A stretch of 64,000 bases of DNA, from the NCBI GenBank assembly GCA_964016885.1, contig OZ024742.1:202368001-202432000 (forward strand), given 5' to 3'. Positions 935 to 62,990 of this stretch are shown piece by piece. The position numbers and the translations under genes are program-made. The notes beneath the pieces were generated by a model. It did no database searches. It had not been told where the DNA came from and saw nothing but the letters and a program-made list of their open reading frames with translations. Position 1 is the first letter of the stretch. Each line of letters begins with the position of its first letter. Source of the stretch: Eledone cirrhosa. Lineage: Eukaryota.

Positions 935-1330
935 GGATTTGTGCTCTGAAATAGCGATGTATACATGAATGTATGTATAGTATATTTGGTAATATACCGT
1001 ATGTTTAATTAAAAACCTTTTGAAGGCCTTGCGCTATCATTTTAAAGTAGTGACTATGTCACATTTCTTTTTTCGGCAAAGGAAGGGAGAGAAGCTGACA
1101 GATTCTGTTTCACACTGTTGGTGTTCCTCAGAGCAACGTACTCCCTGCCTCTGCCGAAAATTATAGAGGCTGGATTCTTGTAGAATTCCAGTAATAATCA
1201 GGAACTGATTATACAGAGCGATTGCCGGTCCAGCAAAAATTTAAAATTAGGATTGGTGCTCTGAAATAGTGATGTATACATGAATGTATAGTATATTTGG
1301 TAATATGCCGTATGTTTAATTAAAAACATT
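935..1330 (-). mobile_element. non-coding HHR-bearing repeat, family D (about 310 bp monomer plus terminal direct repeat)
   Basis: 935-1017 is repeated at 1250-1328. Homologous to 1700-2230 and 37070-37555. Confidence 0.75.
1094..1134 (-). ncRNA. type I hammerhead ribozyme, canonical core
   Basis: Sense GCT-CTGAGGA-ACAC caaca GTGT-GAAA-CAG aat CTG-TC/AGC; all three stems pair; GUC cleavage triplet. Confidence 0.8.
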
Positions 1331-1391
1331 TATATATATATAATAGAAAAAAACCCGCGGAACTTTCGTTTACATATGAAACATATTTATT

Positions 1392-1497
1392 GCGTATCAA
1401 CTTGTTACGCGCGTTTCGCAGAGGATTGGCTCCAGGTAATCCATGGGGTTTATGGACCTGACTCCAGTATCGATCTGCTCCTCAGACTGGTGATGCG
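1392..1497 (-). ncRNA. type I hammerhead ribozyme with extended stem II
   Basis: Sense GT-CTGAGGA-GCAGA...TCTGC-GAAA-CGCGCG-TA/AC; palindromic stem III; distal stem I ATCA/TGAT. Confidence 0.75.
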
Positions 1498-1699
1498 ACA
1501 AAAGATATAGTTTTTGATGCGATTTTATTCATATATATATATATATATATATATATATATATATATATATATATATATATATATATATATAAATATATAT
1601 ATATATATATAATTAAATATATGTATATATATATATATATATATATATATATATATATATATATATATATATATATATATATATATATATATATATATA

Positions 1700-2230
1700 T
1701 ATGAATGTATATATAGTGTATTTTGCAATATACTGTATGCTTAATTAAAAGCATTTCGAAGACCTTAAGCTATTGCTTTAGAGTAGTGACAGTCTCACTT
1801 ACTTTAAATTTTCCGCAAAGAAGGGGAGATAGAGCTGACAGAGCTCTGTTTCGTACTTTTTGTTACTTATCAAAGCTAAATACTCCACCTGTTTGCTGAA
1901 AATCATGAATGTTTGATTCTTATAGAATTCTAGTAATAATCAGGAACTGATTATACAGACCGGTTGCCGGTCAAGCAGAAATTGAAAATTAGAATTGGTG
2001 CTCTGAAATAGCGATATATATATGAATGTATATATAGTGTATTTTTCAATACACTGTATGCTTAATTAAAAGCATTTCGAAGACCTTAAGTAAGTGAGAC
2101 TGTCACTACTCTAAAACAATAGCTTAAGGTCTTCGAAATGCTTTTAATTAAGCATACAGTGTATTGCAATATACACTATATATACATTTATATATATATC
2201 GCTATTTCAGAGCATCAATTCTAATTTTAT
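1700..2230 (-). mobile_element. family D HHR repeat with direct repeat and 5' inversion
   Basis: 1698-1769 is repeated at 2017-2089; 2091-2230 is an inverted copy; flanked by (TA)n. Confidence 0.8.
1833..1877 (-). ncRNA. type I hammerhead ribozyme, U3-A8 variant core
   Basis: Sense AGCT-TTGATAA-GTA acaaaaag TAC-GAAA-CAGAGCTCTG-TC/AGCT. Confidence 0.75.
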
Positions 2231-2396
2231 ATATATACTAGCAGAATGGCCCGGCGTTACTCGGGATTTGCTCTAGGGTTCTTATATATTTGATATATAT
2301 TTGTTCTTATTGAACCTCGTGAAATAAATACGTTTATTTATATTTGTTATTGTGCTTGCAAAAATATCTGTACACGAATATATAATTATATATATA

Positions 2397-59155: not shown

Positions 59156-59764
59156 TGTGATATCATACGGCCTACCGCATACGGACGCTCTAAGCATCGA
59201 ACACCAATTATATATATGTATGTTGCCACGATTCACTGCTAATTGATTTGACAGATGATACCAAACATTTTCCTTGGACAAAACTAACCACTATAAAATC
59301 CTTTTCTTTACTTGAAAATATGAATTTCTATAGGTATTTAAGTGTGTATATGAACCTGCCTTTTATCTTTGTTGAATTAATTGTACATTTCTAAAAATAG
59401 ATATTCCAAAGAATCTCAGTTCCTTAAAATTCATTAGCCAATGACTTCTACCCATCCTTAAAATCAACACCGTCTCCAGCTACAAATGAACATACAAATA
59501 TCCTCGCATTACAACTCAGGTCGGCTTTTCTGATGATTTCCTTGGACTGAAAAAGTTCTAGACCTGTAGAAGCCGTTTCTATATTAAATTTTGTTGTATA
59601 CTCTCTATTAATGTATTGAGCTGCCTTCCATTGAACCTGGGACTCAGATATATATATATATATATAAATATATATATATATATATATATATATATATATA
59701 TATATATATATATATATATATATATATATATATATATATATATATATATATATATATTTGTTTT

Positions 59765-60845
59765 GCAAGGTTTTTGATATGAAACGCGTGTCGAAACAAA
59801 TATTGTTATACTTGGGGAGGGTCATATTGTTATAATATTGCCAGAAATAATAACAGAACACACACACTGTTTGATTTGGGTTGGCTTTCGCTTCTTTATC
59901 CTTTATATCTCCATAGTTAATTTATTTGGCAATCAATGTTTATAATTGATTGACCAGCGGTTAAAAATACAGATATAAATATATATATATATATAGACTA
60001 TCAAAGTTCTTTCGTCGCACATCTGCTACATCATCAGTCGTTCTATTATGTTTCCTGCCATTGTATTGTAAAGTTACGCCATTTTTATTTTATTTATTTA
60101 TTTATTTATTTATTTATTTATTTATTTATTTATTTATTTACTCTTGACTTTCTCTCTGCGCATGCGTTTGCGTGTGTGTATAATGTCTGGTGTGTGTGTT
60201 CGCATTTGAGTGTATGTGTTTTTGTATTCTATCTTTGTTTACTAGTGTATCTTTATATGTGTTTGTTGTTATTGTACTTGTGTATATATTTATTTATTTA
60301 TATTTCTCTTAAGTCAGTATTGTTTGTTTGGGTATGGTTGTTGTTATTATTCCATTCGCTCTTTCTGTTCAACTTCGGTCTTCTTAGTTCTATCTCAGTT
60401 GCTTCTCTGATTTGCCTATCTGTTGAGTCCTTTCTATGCTTATTATTCCAATTTCTATGTTGTCTATATTGCCATCAGGTCTTTGTCTGGCGTGTTCATA
60501 TAGTATTGAACCGTGTTTCTTTTTGTCCATTTAGTTCCTCCCAGTGTTGGTCTATTCTGTCTCGCCTATGTATGTCTTTGTCATGTATCTGCAACTACCA
60601 TCTGTACATCTTATGTTATAGACTACATTTCTAGTTTTACAATTTATCTGGGGGTTCATTCTTGCTGATCAGGGATTATATGGTAGTTCCTGGCTTTTCT
60701 ACCATTTTAATCTTTAGATGGGTCTTTCTTGGGGTCTATCTACATTGCTTAGCTAATTTGTAGAAAGGCCCTAAGAATATAATAGTACCACTCTTGATGT
60801 CGCAGATGTGTGACGAAAGAACTTTGGTACACTATATATATATAT
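59765..60845 (-). mobile_element. second, decayed Penelope family C copy with 5' inverted pseudo-LTR piece
   Basis: 60300-60760 matches 39790-40310. HHR-like motifs at 59993-60046 (-) and 60782-60835 (+). Confidence 0.85.
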
Positions 60846-60854
60846 TTATATCAA

Positions 60855-61560
60855 TGAAAGGTAGAGTTAAAAACTCCTACTGAAACCCTGTAATTAACAA
60901 GCTCAAAGTATAAATACTGAGAATTTTAACAGTAATACATGTAGTAATAAACACAGTAAATCGTGTCTAATATTACGAGGGTTGAAGAACCACATTTGTT
61001 TGAAATATTTAACCATGAAGCAGACAGAATGATAAAAATAAAATTAAATTATACAGGCCGCCTCAATAACAATTACATCTCTCGGACAGATTAGGGATTA
61101 ATCTGTTATAATGCTCAGTATTTATACTTTGAGCTTGTTAATTACAGGGTTTCAGTATGAGTTATTAACACTACCTTTCACTTATATTTCGGCTCCGTCC
61201 CTAGTTGAGCCTATAAAGTTGTGTGTATTGGGCTGTTATTTCTGACCAATCCACTCACACCACATTTGACTTAAGGCACACGAGGTGAAGAATTCATTTT
61301 TCTATGTGAACGTTAGTATTAGATGTTTGTCGCATTTATTCTCTCACTGATGATGCCCGTGGATTATCTGTTACAAACACACTCAGAGCGAAATAGATTA
61401 ATCCCTAATCTGTCCAAGAGATGTAATTGTTATTGAGGCGGTCTGTATAATTTAATTTTATTTTTATCATTCTGTCTGCTTCATGGTTAAATATTTCAAA
61501 CAAATGTGGTTCTTCAACCCTCGTAATATTAGACACACGATTTACTGTTTATTACTACAT
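60855..61560 (+). mobile_element. HHR-bearing repeat with two inverted segments
   Basis: 60855-60921 is inverted at 61113-61180, and 60938-61107 at 61392-61560. Family fragments at 50290-50357 and 51620-51695. Confidence 0.75.
61340..61421 (+). ncRNA. type I hammerhead ribozyme with a full stem III
   Basis: TCTCTCA-CTGATGA-t GCCC...GAGC-GAAA-TAGATTA atccc TAATCTG-TC/CAAGAGA. Sister fragments give GGGC-GAAA-CAGATTA and CGAGAGA, which improve the pairing. Confidence 0.7.
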
Positions 61561-62276
61561 ATATATATTTATATCTTTTCACCACTGGTCAAGATACAGA
61601 AGCAAAAATCAATCCAAACTAAACAGTGAGTGCAGTGAGTGTGTTCTGTTAATGTTTCTGGCAATATTATAACAATATGACCGTCCCCAAGTATGACAAT
61701 ATATATATATAATATTAATTGTTTCTACTTTTGGCACATTGAAATGGGACTCATATATATATATATATATATATATATATATATATATATATATATATAT
61801 ATATACATCAAGGTATATATAAATATATATATATCAAGATTTAGCAAATAAGAAAAAGTTTCAAAATAAATACACTGTACTTACTATGGTTACCTTGCGG
61901 GCTTCCATTGAAAAGATAAACTCTCGTCAGAAGGTTCTTTTCACTCGGAGAATATAAAATTCCCGAGTTCAAATTACGAACTGGCGCTATTCAAAATTGT
62001 TCCCGAGATGAGAATGAATGATGTGTAAGCAATTCTGTCCAGTGCCGAGTGCAAAGATAGAAGGCAGAGGCAGGGAGGTCAAGCTACTACCACTATAAAT
62101 AGCAGCAGTCAAAACGACCAAATTTCATATATATATATATAAATGGAAAAAATGAAACGAAATTTCATTTCTCACGCTTAGTACGGCTGTTAAATACATA
62201 TACATACTTATATTATACATATATATATATATATATATATATATATATATATATATATATATATATATATATATAT

Positions 62277-62990
62277 GTTATAGATTCCATACACTGGTGG
62301 TTTTCCCAGTTTTATTGATGGCGCACTATCTCTCTAGTGTGTTACCTTTTCAACATATTGTATTTTAAAGAGCTCAGGACTCCTTCTCTTTTGAGCAGAT
62401 TATTGACAGGGAATAGCGAGAGTCTATGGCTCCATTAACTTATCGTGATATTTCGCTCCTTATAACAGTCTTTCCTCTCTCTCTGTTTGGTTGAGCACAC
62501 TTCTCTGAATGGTTTAGGATTGCCGTTTCTAGCAGCTCGTCCCTCAGACACCACTGGTTCACTGCCCTAAAACCCTGTGACATTTCTCTCCCACGTGTAG
62601 CTGGGCGGCCGCTTTAGATTCTCTTAGATTTGTCTGGAATGTATAGCCTTACACACGCTGTGAACCATGGGCTACTTCATTTCAGTCAACAACTTCTTGG
62701 CGAAACAGATCTCTTTGGATTTGTACGTGTGTTATATAGTTATAGAGGTATGTATTTACACTTTAATTTATATTTTTAATTACCGTGTCTATACTCTCCC
62801 TTTCATAGGTTATAGATTCCATAGACTGGTGGTTTTTCCCTGTTTTACTGATAGCGCACTGTATCTCTCTCTCTAGTGTGTTACCTTTTCAACATATTGT
62901 ATTTTAAAGTGCTCAGGACTCCTTCACCTTTGAGCACATTATTGACAGGGAATAGCGAGACTCTATGGCTCCATTAATTTATCGTGATAT
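62277..62990 (+). mobile_element. monomer of about 532 bp with a 175-bp terminal direct repeat and a decayed HHR
   Basis: 62277-62452 is repeated at 62808-62990. ACACACG-CTG_TGA...GAAA-CAGATCT..GGATTTG-TA/CGTGTGT at 62651-62732. Confidence 0.7.

What the first reader, a model, noticed from the sequence alone, without database searches (positions are those of the whole stretch)
1094..62732. Hidden ribozyme landscape: about 20 hammerhead motifs from at least 10 non-coding mobile families in 64 kb
Seen in sequence: type I HHR topologies (stem I, CUGANGA or UUGANAA, stem II, GAAA, stem III, NUH, stem I') at 1094, 1392, 1833, 9909, 16376, 25324, 26137/26304, 27043/27471/27897, 32240, 35831, 36832, 37191, 38867, 39477, 42597, 46108/46580, 52126, 59522, 59993, 61340 and 62651. 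Host monomers of different families show no obvious sequence similarity but share an architecture: 300-670 bp unit, terminal redundancy, 5' inversion and (TA)n flanks. Established: minimal HHRs mark Penelope-like element pseudo-LTRs and metazoan non-LTR retrozymes. Inference: this genome hosts a large radiation of ribozyme-bearing non-autonomous retroelements mobilised by Penelope-type RT/GIY-YIG proteins.
Basis: partly seen in the sequence, partly recalled or inferred. Interest (0 to 1): 0.88.

Follow-up and report, generated by a model that had tools for sequence, protein, structure and literature searches.

The report
Penelope ribozyme ends share start hairpin
The self-cutting RNA motifs are real and belong to a known kind of jumping gene (Penelope-like element ends and their short non-coding satellites), but this animal genome is estimated to hold roughly 400,000 of them, and a small hairpin beside the insertion ends of many families likely tells one Penelope-type enzyme where to start copying.

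Summary
Observation confirmed: 22 hammerhead hits against about 2 in shuffles. 18 of 25 listed sites pass my descriptor. Six more belong to families with intact motifs elsewhere; one (H) passes only a looser setting. Of 15 families, five (8 sites) are pseudo-LTR ends of coding Penelope-like elements: one Neptune/Nematis-type with intact 1,217-aa ORFs, and four Hydra-type. Eight (14 sites) are non-coding units that close on themselves (retrozymes); two are unresolved. Most families tested end at two fixed sites in (TA)n, with 5' truncation and inversion, the Penelope signature. Sixty evenly spaced 10-kb samples give about 380,000 motifs genome-wide (260,000-510,000); the window is about twice the mean. 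A bulged hairpin with cross-family compensatory changes follows the fixed ends in 11 of 16 families, coding and non-coding alike, and likely marks where the Hydra-type reverse transcriptase starts. Cleavage and expression are untested. Earlier scan notes reached similar retrozyme and pLTR readings elsewhere in this genome and in other genomes, and noted a similar hairpin in a mussel. New variant of a known kind.

The parts
1070..1160 (-). Family A hammerhead, C3-G8 core; non-coding 321-bp unit family (element 934-1325)
1393..1497 (-). Family F hammerhead; long shared upstream sequence, ORF not reached (unresolved, likely a pLTR)
1809..1902 (-). Family A hammerhead, U3-A8 core; element 1702-2227 with inverted 5' arm
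9909..9993 (-). Family E hammerhead; non-coding unit of about 486 bp with terminal redundancy
10270..10305 (-). Bulged end-hairpin of family E, just after the fixed end
12796..12891 (+).
16368..16464 (-). Family G hammerhead; non-coding 523-bp unit, an array of 11 units elsewhere
16813..16836 (-). Bulged end-hairpin of family G
20424..21807 (-). Broken Hydra-type Penelope-like ORF fragment (RT thumb, CxCx5C linker, GIY-YIG); no hammerhead found downstream
25316..25374 (-). Family H hammerhead (weak stem II); non-coding unit of about 424 bp related to C, with ATGCAAAT octamers
25692..25906 (.). Family P inverted pair, truncated inside the ribozyme, with end-hairpin at 25836-25859
26137..26190 (-). 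Family B hammerhead = pLTR of the coding Neptune/Nematis-type element
26304..26357 (+). [quoted passage not shown]
26629..28134 (-). Family C 426-bp trimer (hammerheads 27037-27093, 27460-27528, 27886-27954) with inverted arm 26629-26830
31902..32335 (.). Family I inverted pair: intact hammerhead 32222-32310 (+), core-mutated partner 31922-32022 (-); pLTR of a coding Hydra-type element
31875..31894 (-). Bulged end-hairpin of family I (in the tail)
35746..35890 (.). Family D inverted pair (hammerhead 35831-35882 +) with end-hairpin 35746-35764 (-); ORF not reached (unresolved)
36825..36884 (+). Family J hammerhead = pLTR of a coding Hydra-type element (tail runs into an ORF start in L163)
37167..37259 (-). 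Family A hammerhead, U3-A8 core; element 37066-37550 with inverted arm
37600..37720 (-).
38862..38917 (+). Family K hammerhead = pLTR of a coding Hydra-type element (pLTR-ORF-pLTR, period 5854 bp, in L195)
39477..39530 (-). Family B hammerhead directly downstream of the GIY-YIG ORF end
39785..40800 (-). 5'-truncated, broken Neptune/Nematis-type ORF (RT thumb, Cx4CxxC linker, GIY-YIG), 93% identical to intact 1217-aa copies
41797..41975 (.). Family P inverted pair, truncated inside the ribozyme; end-hairpin 41844-41867
42589..42718 (-). Family L hammerhead (U3-A8, long loop II) = pLTR of a coding Hydra-type element; lacks the end-hairpin
45649..46933 (+). Family C 472-bp array (hammerheads 46095-46162, 46566-46634); non-coding
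52126..52210 (-). Family M hammerhead, decayed; unit of about 663 bp; end-hairpin 52462-52497
59522..59580 (+). Family D hammerhead, decayed
59993..60046 (-). Family B hammerhead, decayed, downstream of a GIY-YIG fragment at 60361-60786
61335..61420 (+). Family N hammerhead, decayed; non-coding unit of about 470 bp with inverted arm; hairpin 61113-61134
62277..62986 (+). Family O unit of about 535 bp with terminal redundancy; hammerhead at about 62651-62750 lacks one core base; end-hairpins 62372-62396 and 62911-62935

Best explanation
The window holds about 30 copies, intact or decayed, of type I hammerhead motifs from 16 families; six families are the 3' ends (pseudo-LTRs) of protein-coding Penelope-like elements, eight are short non-coding units that close on themselves (retrozymes), and all were likely inserted by Penelope-type reverse transcriptase/GIY-YIG proteins. 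Mechanism. (1) Shown: insertions sit in (TA)n, stop at two fixed 3' sites in most families tested, and are 5'-truncated and often inverted. (2) Inferred from Frangieh et al. 2024: the enzyme nicks TA-rich DNA and starts reverse transcription inside the RNA at either of two sites. (3) Shown: the ribozyme motif lies about 20-250 nt from those sites, so very short insertions keep it, which explains the density. (4) Shown: a bulged hairpin (RYUC, 2-3 bp, loop, 2-3 bp, 2-nt bulge, GARY) follows the fixed ends in Hydra-type coding families (I, J, K, P) and in non-coding E, G, M, N, O. Inferred: it is the start signal by which those retrozymes borrow the Hydra enzyme. (5) Inferred from the literature: the hammerhead cuts multimeric transcripts, mostly as a dimer or with protein help; monomers circularise; the enzyme rolls round them to give terminal redundancy and tandem arrays.
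For: Descriptor against shuffles and decoys; covariation. Coding links: B pLTR sequence follows the GIY-YIG ORF in 13 of 14 loci L014-L027 and in all 6 long-ORF loci (ORFs of 1119-1217 aa), with 31,268 first-look candidates. K as pLTR-ORF-pLTR. I with EN 1.5 kb upstream in L075 and L197. J tail runs into an ORF start like K's. L with EN upstream in L202. P with EN about 930 bp upstream in 5 of 15 copies. Clade motifs: B has Cx4CxxC and two cysteines between GIY and YIG. K shows CxCx5C, no CCHH, CxxC-E...N-CxH, and RW and DKT in its N-terminal part; I, L and P show most of the endonuclease features. These are the Hydra diagnostics of Craig et al. 2021. Two end clusters in A, B, C, D, F, G, I, J, K, L, P and O. 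Hairpin: within -1 to +7 nt of the first end in D, F, G, I, J, K, P and of the second end in J and K, against a background of about 0.9% per 12 nt. Tight form: 12 in 5,914 nt downstream of hammerhead hits in the 600-kb sample, against 0.10 shuffled (max 2), 3 in 17,934 nt upstream and 0 antisense. Units and arms within one young insertion differ less than separate insertions (G 0.3-0.6% vs 2.1%; I arms 0.8% vs 2.6%).
Against: No RNA or cleavage data. Minimum-free-energy folds show the three-way junction clearly for only 1 of 10 monomers, G; this is usual for short stem III but is not support. Published cleavage is often weak: 1 of 9 Xenopus dimers cleaved (Li et al. 2026), and hammerhead mutants did not impair insertion in vitro (Frangieh et al. 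2024). The hairpin is absent from A, B, C, H and from L, which is Hydra-type by its endonuclease. It was defined by eye from D, F, I, J, K and P, so those are not independent tests, and about half of the 12 sample hits come from D and I. In N it starts about 18 nt after the end. E showed only one clear end cluster. No autonomous partner was found for A, C or H. The within-insertion similarity signal is absent or weak in the older families A and O. Clade calls rest on motifs; no tree with reference elements was built.
Confidence: 0.82

Rival explanations
1. All families are non-coding, mutually unrelated retrozymes.
For: Eight families close on themselves and form tandem or terminally redundant units with no ORF inside the unit. 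Most window copies carry no ORF.
Against: B, I, J, K, L and P continue into or out of RT/GIY-YIG ORFs in longer copies. C426-C472, C-H and J-K are homologous.
Confidence: 0.04
2. Penelope enzymes insert these elements, but the hammerheads are mostly passengers: arrays come from linear read-through transcripts of older arrays or from unequal crossing-over, with no circular RNA step.
For: Hammerhead mutants did not reduce insertion in vitro, and no reads ended at the cut site (PMC11167929). Low cleavage in vitro (PMC4209133; Li et al. 2026). Near-identical tandem units also fit recent local amplification.
Against: Compensatory changes in the stems, and a C3-G8/U3-A8 swap within family A, show selection on the fold. 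Opposite arms of one insertion are more alike than separate insertions in G and I. Circular RNAs are shown for coral, mussel and axolotl retrozymes (PMC7229834).
Confidence: 0.25
3. The non-coding units are SINE-like passengers of ordinary LINEs (such as the R4/Dong-like element at 53477-56429), not of Penelope-like elements.
For: A non-Penelope RT is present in the window (PF00078, E 8.5e-15). Dong-R4 has the most recently active LINE insertions in the Octopus vulgaris table (PMC13282606, passage).
Against: The two fixed ends with a tail, the inverted 5' arms and the shared end-hairpin match the coding Penelope-like families here. The tail is described as unique to Penelope-like elements (PMC11167929).
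Confidence: 0.03
4. The motifs are chance matches produced by AT-rich, palindrome-rich DNA.
For: The window is 34% GC and full of inverted repeats. 2-4 of the 22 relaxed hits (23767, 34446, perhaps 41177) are probably chance.
Against: Ten-fold or greater excess over global, local and microsatellite-free shuffles, the reversed sequence and decoy cores; covariation; intact family copies genome-wide. One decoy pair gave 94 hits in the 600-kb sample; I did not trace its cause, and all other decoy pairs gave 0-5.
Confidence: 0.01

Closest known systems
Minimal hammerheads in pseudo-LTRs of Penelope-like elements (Cervera and de la Pena 2014, PMC4209133; parts 1-2 of 4 read)
   Same: Type I fold, short palindromic stem III, U3-A8 variant, many sequence families per genome, mostly single truncated copies, inverted pairs 100-700 bp apart.
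   Different: Counts there are about 2,000-9,000 per genome, against an estimated 260,000-510,000 here (different descriptor). No shared end signal is described in the parts read.
Metazoan non-LTR retrozymes (Cervera and de la Pena 2020, PMC7229834, passages and part 3 of 6; Li, Clavereau and Pollet 2026, bioRxiv 10.64898/2026.07.22.740005, parts 1-3 of 5)
   Same: Non-coding low-GC units of a few hundred bases with one type I hammerhead, as monomers to multimers; proposed to be Penelope-derived and Penelope-mobilised.
   Different: At least eight families occur in 64 kb. Their insertions show the Penelope two-end, tail and inversion footprint, and five share an end-hairpin with coding Hydra-type families. 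The largest published count I found is 126,247 (axolotl). Circular RNA is shown there and untested here.
Hydra clade of Penelope-like elements (Craig et al. 2021, PMC8557442; passages, section 11 and supplement file 1 searched)
   Same: C-terminal GIY-YIG without CCHH, CxCx5C linker, CxxC and CxH around E and N, DKT, (TA)n targets, canonical hammerheads. Hydra-1_Obim is listed for Octopus bimaculoides.
   Different: Described as a small number of families of less than 3 kb. Here there are many families (25 endonuclease sites in 600 kb, against 9 for the B lineage), with long 3' UTRs (K period 5.85 kb) and 80-170 nt tails.
Poseidon_Ac internal initiation (Frangieh et al. 2024, PMC11167929; parts 1-2 of 4)
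   Same: Two start sites define the two genomic ends and the tail; initiation is tied to an RNA stem-loop; AT-rich DNA is nicked; the hammerhead lies nearby.
   Different: One element, with an AC-rich stem-loop inside the ORF start. Here a different bulged hairpin recurs at both ends across many families, including non-coding ones, and is inferred only from DNA footprints.

Membership tests
Type I hammerhead ribozyme | CUGANGA (or U3-A8 UUGANAA), GAAA and UH in type I order with stems I-III | tested here: met
   18 of 25 listed sites pass the relaxed descriptor; 22 hits against about 2 in shuffles
Type I hammerhead ribozyme | Stems kept by compensatory change | tested here: met
   A 15 of 30 pairs, I 8 of 20 pairs; other families not tested
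Type I hammerhead ribozyme | Self-cleavage at NUH | not testable with these tools
   Needs transcription assays
Type I hammerhead ribozyme | Match to Rfam hammerhead models at gathering score | tested here: not met
   0 matches to any family at gathering score; these motifs are variants with short stem III or long stem II
Penelope-like element (families B, I, J, K, L, P) | RT plus C-terminal GIY-YIG ORF joined to the hammerhead-bearing repeat | tested here: met
   for J only the ORF start after the tail was seen. Pfam did not score the B or L031 ORFs; the call rests on motifs.
Penelope-like element (families B, I, J, K, L, P) | pLTR tandem or partial tandem, 5' truncation, inverted 5' copy, optional tail | tested here: met
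Hydra clade (I, J, K, L, P) | CxCx5C linker, no CCHH, CxxC-E...N-CxH, DKT, (TA)n target | tested here: met
   All seen in K; endonuclease features in I, L, P (linker not shown for P, and L departs at the CxxC); J by ORF-start similarity to K
Hydra clade (I, J, K, L, P) | Placement in the RT tree with reference Hydra elements | not tested
   No reference sequences held; no tree built
Neptune or Nematis clade (B) | Cx2-5CxxC linker, and CCHH with two cysteines between GIY and YIG | tested here: met
   Neptune versus Nematis not resolved
Non-LTR retrozyme (A, C, E, G, H, M, N, O) | Non-coding unit of a few hundred bases, one type I hammerhead per unit, head-to-tail or terminally redundant | tested here: met
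   A 321, C 426/472, E about 486, G 523, H about 424, M about 663, N about 470, O about 535 bp; M and N rest on few copies
Non-LTR retrozyme (A, C, E, G, H, M, N, O) | Expressed as linear and circular unit-length RNA | tested here: inconclusive
   No RNA holder listed; four small-share runs laid nothing
Non-LTR retrozyme (D, F) | Unit closes on itself | tested here: inconclusive
   430-490 bp shared upstream, neither closure nor ORF reached
Type-SGC and other permuted hammerheads (Eckert et al. 2023, PMC10085705, passages) | Core blocks in SGC, CSG or GCS order | tested here: not met
   0 hits in the window and in 600 kb with a strict scan that finds only 4 type I hits in the window; split-core forms were not searched

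The most novel reading that the evidence does not exclude
This genome carries the densest load of hammerhead ribozyme motifs I found on record (about 130 per Mb, roughly 400,000 in all). A conserved bulged hairpin set just past each of the two fixed insertion ends is the template-start signal of Hydra-clade reverse transcriptases. Several unrelated non-coding ribozyme circles (E, G, M, N, O) carry it and so parasitise that enzyme, which names the mobilising enzyme for animal retrozymes and gives a portable RNA tag for (TA)n-targeted insertion.
Probability: 0.5. Interest if true: 0.74.

Novelty: new variant of a known kind. Interest (0 to 1): 0.56.

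Why it matters
How animal retrozymes move has been proposed (Penelope-like elements as helpers) but not shown. A shared structural element at the exact ends of both coding Hydra-type elements and non-coding units makes that question directly testable with one purified protein and a few RNA mutants. 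The scale also matters for annotation and RNA biology: one potential self-cleaving motif every 7-8 kb would fall in many introns of a 3-Gb genome. The 2026 Octopus vulgaris repeat annotation does not mention ribozymes in its main text, and Rfam misses all of them here.

Tried and rejected
Rfam: no match at gathering score; the E-value list was swamped by miRNA-hairpin matches to microsatellites (only the top 150 of 434 shown). My first descriptor was too strict (1 hit), because it disallowed short palindromic stem III and bulged stem I. The repeat finder on the whole window was dominated by microsatellites, so I used masked self-BLAST instead. Pfam did not recognise the Penelope ORFs of B or L031. 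My first pair count on family A used a wrong register for distal stem I and was redone. RNAalifold on family I returned a different 9-pair helix rather than the hammerhead. Expression: no RNA holder listed; four small-share runs laid nothing; this is no evidence either way. Permuted (type-SGC) hammerheads, a lead from earlier scan notes, were not found in this window with a strict scan. I looked by eye for an end signal shared between B and the hairpin-less A, C and H: none was found. A, C and H share a short GCYRT...AGAGY word after the first end (by eye, untested). Lunse et al. on dimeric Penelope hammerheads is not held; I saw it only as cited in PMC6765202. Literature searches for a cephalopod hammerhead survey, a larger per-genome count or a shared Penelope start hairpin found none. 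Subscription papers, Repbase/Dfam entries and the bioRxiv supplements of Li et al. were not seen and may hold such data. The host is taken as octopus-like only from repeat content and a 68%-identical Octopus vulgaris protein.

Full report
SETTING. The window is 34% GC animal DNA rich in (TA)n and (CA)n. It lies at G000:C3:202368001-202432000 in a 3.0-Gb assembly. The nearest named relative of its main retroelement protein is from Octopus vulgaris at 68% identity, so I treat the host as octopus-like; this is an inference.

A strict type I descriptor gave 9 hits against 0.16-0.36 in shuffles. A relaxed one gave 22 against 1.45-2.0 (max 6), with 0 in the reversed sequence and 0-3 for decoy cores. 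Eighteen of the 25 listed sites pass. H (25324) passes only a looser setting. The other six are decayed copies of families with better copies elsewhere: B and D, M, N and O (O has CUGAUGA in 10 of 13 other copies). Stems covary: 15 of 30 pairs in family A, including all 4 of stem II (15 hand-picked rows of 44), and 8 of 20 in family I (26 of 51 rows). Family A also holds both C3-G8 and U3-A8 cores. Rfam finds none at gathering score.

WHAT THE FAMILIES ARE. The 25 sites fall into 15 families. Five are ends of coding elements. B follows a GIY-YIG fragment twice in the window. Its pLTR sequence follows the ORF in 13 of 14 top loci and in all 6 long-ORF loci, with ORFs of 1119-1217 aa; five of these ORFs are 96-99.6% identical to each other, and the first look counted 31,268 candidates. 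K forms pLTR-ORF-pLTR with a 5,854-bp period. I has an endonuclease 1.5 kb upstream in two loci. J's tail runs into an ORF start like K's. L has an endonuclease upstream within shared sequence in L202. P, the added family, has one about 930 bp upstream in 5 of 15 copies. B carries the Cx4CxxC linker and CCHH of Neptune/Nematis elements. K carries the Hydra diagnostics of Craig et al. 2021 in full, and I, L and P carry most of the endonuclease ones. Hydra-1_Obim is already listed for an octopus in that paper's supplement. Eight families are non-coding units that close on themselves: A 321 bp, C 426 and 472 bp, E about 486, G 523, H about 424, M about 663, N about 470, O about 535. D and F share 430-490 bp upstream without closure or ORF, and stay unresolved. 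Families are not all unrelated: C426-C472 z=66, C-H z=16, J-K z=14.

INSERTION FOOTPRINT. Copies end in (TA)n at two fixed sites: A 29 nt apart, C about 58, F 65, P about 80, J 94, I about 95, K 111, G 118, L about 170, and O 88. E showed one clear cluster. 5' truncation and an inverted arm are common. This is the tail signature that Frangieh et al. 2024 traced to two internal start sites of a Penelope reverse transcriptase, and the arrangement Craig et al. describe for the group. Units and arms within one young insertion differ less than separate insertions: G 0.3% and 0.6% against 2.1%, C 0.9% and 1.2% against 1.7%, I arms 0.8% against 2.6%. A and O show little or no such gap (the between-insertion sets are biased to top hits). 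This fits one RNA template per insertion but does not prove a circle.

A SHARED END SIGNAL. Just past the fixed ends I saw, by eye in D, F, I, J, K and P, a hairpin RYUC, 2-3 bp, loop, 2-3 bp, 2-nt bulge, GARY. An automated test on 13 families found it within -1 to +7 nt of the first end in D, F, G, I, J, K and P, and of the second end in J and K. The background is about 0.9% per 12 nt. It was absent in A, B, C, H, L and in the one E copy used. The window's E copy has it, as do M, N and O. G, E and O show related forms at a second site (by eye, with an imperfect outer pair in G and a long loop in O). The inner stem changes in step between families (UGC/GCA, UGU/ACA, CAA/UUG, CGU/ACG, UAC/GUA, UGG/CCA). 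In the 600-kb sample the tight form occurs 12 times in 5,914 nt downstream of 82 hammerhead hits, against 0.10 shuffled, 3 in 17,934 nt upstream and 0 antisense; about half of the 12 are from families not used to define it. It therefore joins five non-coding families to four Hydra-type coding families. L, Hydra-type but without the hairpin, is the exception, and no helper was found for A, C or H.

SCALE. Sixty evenly spaced 10-kb stretches gave 86 hits at score 22 or more, against 1-9 in six local shuffles and 5 reversed. One decoy pair gave 94 hits that I did not trace; the rest gave 0-5. A stratified bootstrap gives about 379,000 motifs genome-wide (261,000-506,000), or 291,000 at score 30. 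The window's 21 hits are about twice the mean of the four large chromosomes (P about 0.014). Published counts I saw are 126,247 in axolotl and more than 6,000 in a coral (PMC7229834), about 9,000 in Xenopus tropicalis (PMC4209133), and 235 Rfam hits in giant squid (PMC6962438). The descriptors differ, so the comparison is indicative. 54 of the 86 have a palindromic or very short stem III segment, which by established knowledge points to cleavage as dimers.

HOW IT MOST LIKELY WORKS. Shown: (TA)n targets, two fixed ends, truncation and inversion, ribozyme motif close to the ends, ORF links, shared hairpin. Inferred: the RT-GIY-YIG protein nicks TA-rich DNA and primes inside the RNA just before the hairpin, often on both sides of the break. 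Because most copies are short, nearly all keep the hammerhead. Non-coding units that keep or gain the hairpin borrow the enzyme. The hammerhead likely cuts multimeric transcripts into monomers that circularise and are copied round, giving terminal redundancy and arrays. Against a central role for cleavage: only 1 of 9 Xenopus dimers cleaved, hammerhead mutants did not block insertion in vitro, and predicted monomer folds rarely show the junction. I have no RNA evidence.

COMPARISON AND VERDICT. The coding families are members of the Penelope-like elements on the features tested. The eight closed units are non-LTR retrozymes on their DNA features, with expression untested. Li et al. 2026 already argue that animal retrozymes derive from Penelope pseudo-LTRs. 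My paper searches found no cephalopod survey, no larger count and no shared start hairpin, but subscription papers, repeat databases and preprint supplements were not seen. Earlier scan notes, which are unchecked and not support, describe two-armed retrozymes in this genome, pLTR ends in another octopus-like genome and a similar bulged stem-loop in a mussel. Verdict: a real feature and a new variant of a known kind; interest 0.56, carried by the scale and the testable end signal.

Noticed in passing
window 53477-56429 (+); partial inverted copy 32772-33643: Broken non-Penelope retrotransposon with RT (PF00078, E 8.5e-15) followed by a Cys/His knuckle; looks R4/Dong-like by recalled motifs.
   Followed up: partly
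window 25316-25600 and C units (e.g. 46495-46510): Families C and H carry one to two exact ATGCAAAT octamers (plus a near copy in H) 60-150 nt upstream of the hammerhead. This may be an snRNA-type promoter element, as I recall for newt satellite 2 (recalled, not checked).
   Followed up: partly
window 36045-36085 (+), 52640-52750 (-), 58580-58720 (-) with 59046-59157 (+), 60776-60829 (+), 61893-62122 (-): Further decayed hammerhead-like copies, read by eye; some resemble intact families in the random sample.
   Followed up: partly
   Followed up: partly
window 21-207, 18869-19710, 23477-23607, 29034-29224, 34202-34936, 44184-44393, 50365-50565, 63082-63280: About 14 copies of a repeat of about 190 bp, some in tandem, with no hammerhead hit; SINE-like.
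   Followed up: no
window 377-494, 14665-14876, 24964-25162, 45045-45255: tRNA-like-headed SINE copies (by eye; ARAGORN calls no tRNA gene).
   Followed up: no
L062:2700-5457 (-) and L093:3700-5457 (-): A third Penelope-like lineage (RT plus GIY-YIG) whose 3' end has GAAA and a short palindromic stem III but no standard CUGANGA or UUGANAA; possibly a core-variant hammerhead.
   Followed up: partly
families A, C, H, just after their fixed ends: They lack the bulged hairpin but share a short GCYRT...AGAGY word after the first end and a CCGG/UCGG hairpin after the second (by eye); possibly the signal of another helper lineage.
   Followed up: partly
family P, e.g. window 25692-25906 and 41797-41975: Very abundant (29 BLAST hits in 600 kb); most copies break off inside the ribozyme's stem II or loop II and invert there, leaving half-ribozyme palindromes.
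   Followed up: partly
window 43274-44081: AT-rich minisatellite, including 27 copies of a 17-bp unit.
   Followed up: no
L054-L113 (random sample), decoy core GTGANGA with AAGA: One decoy pair gave 94 hits in the 600-kb sample; cause not traced, possibly a single repeat.
   Followed up: no
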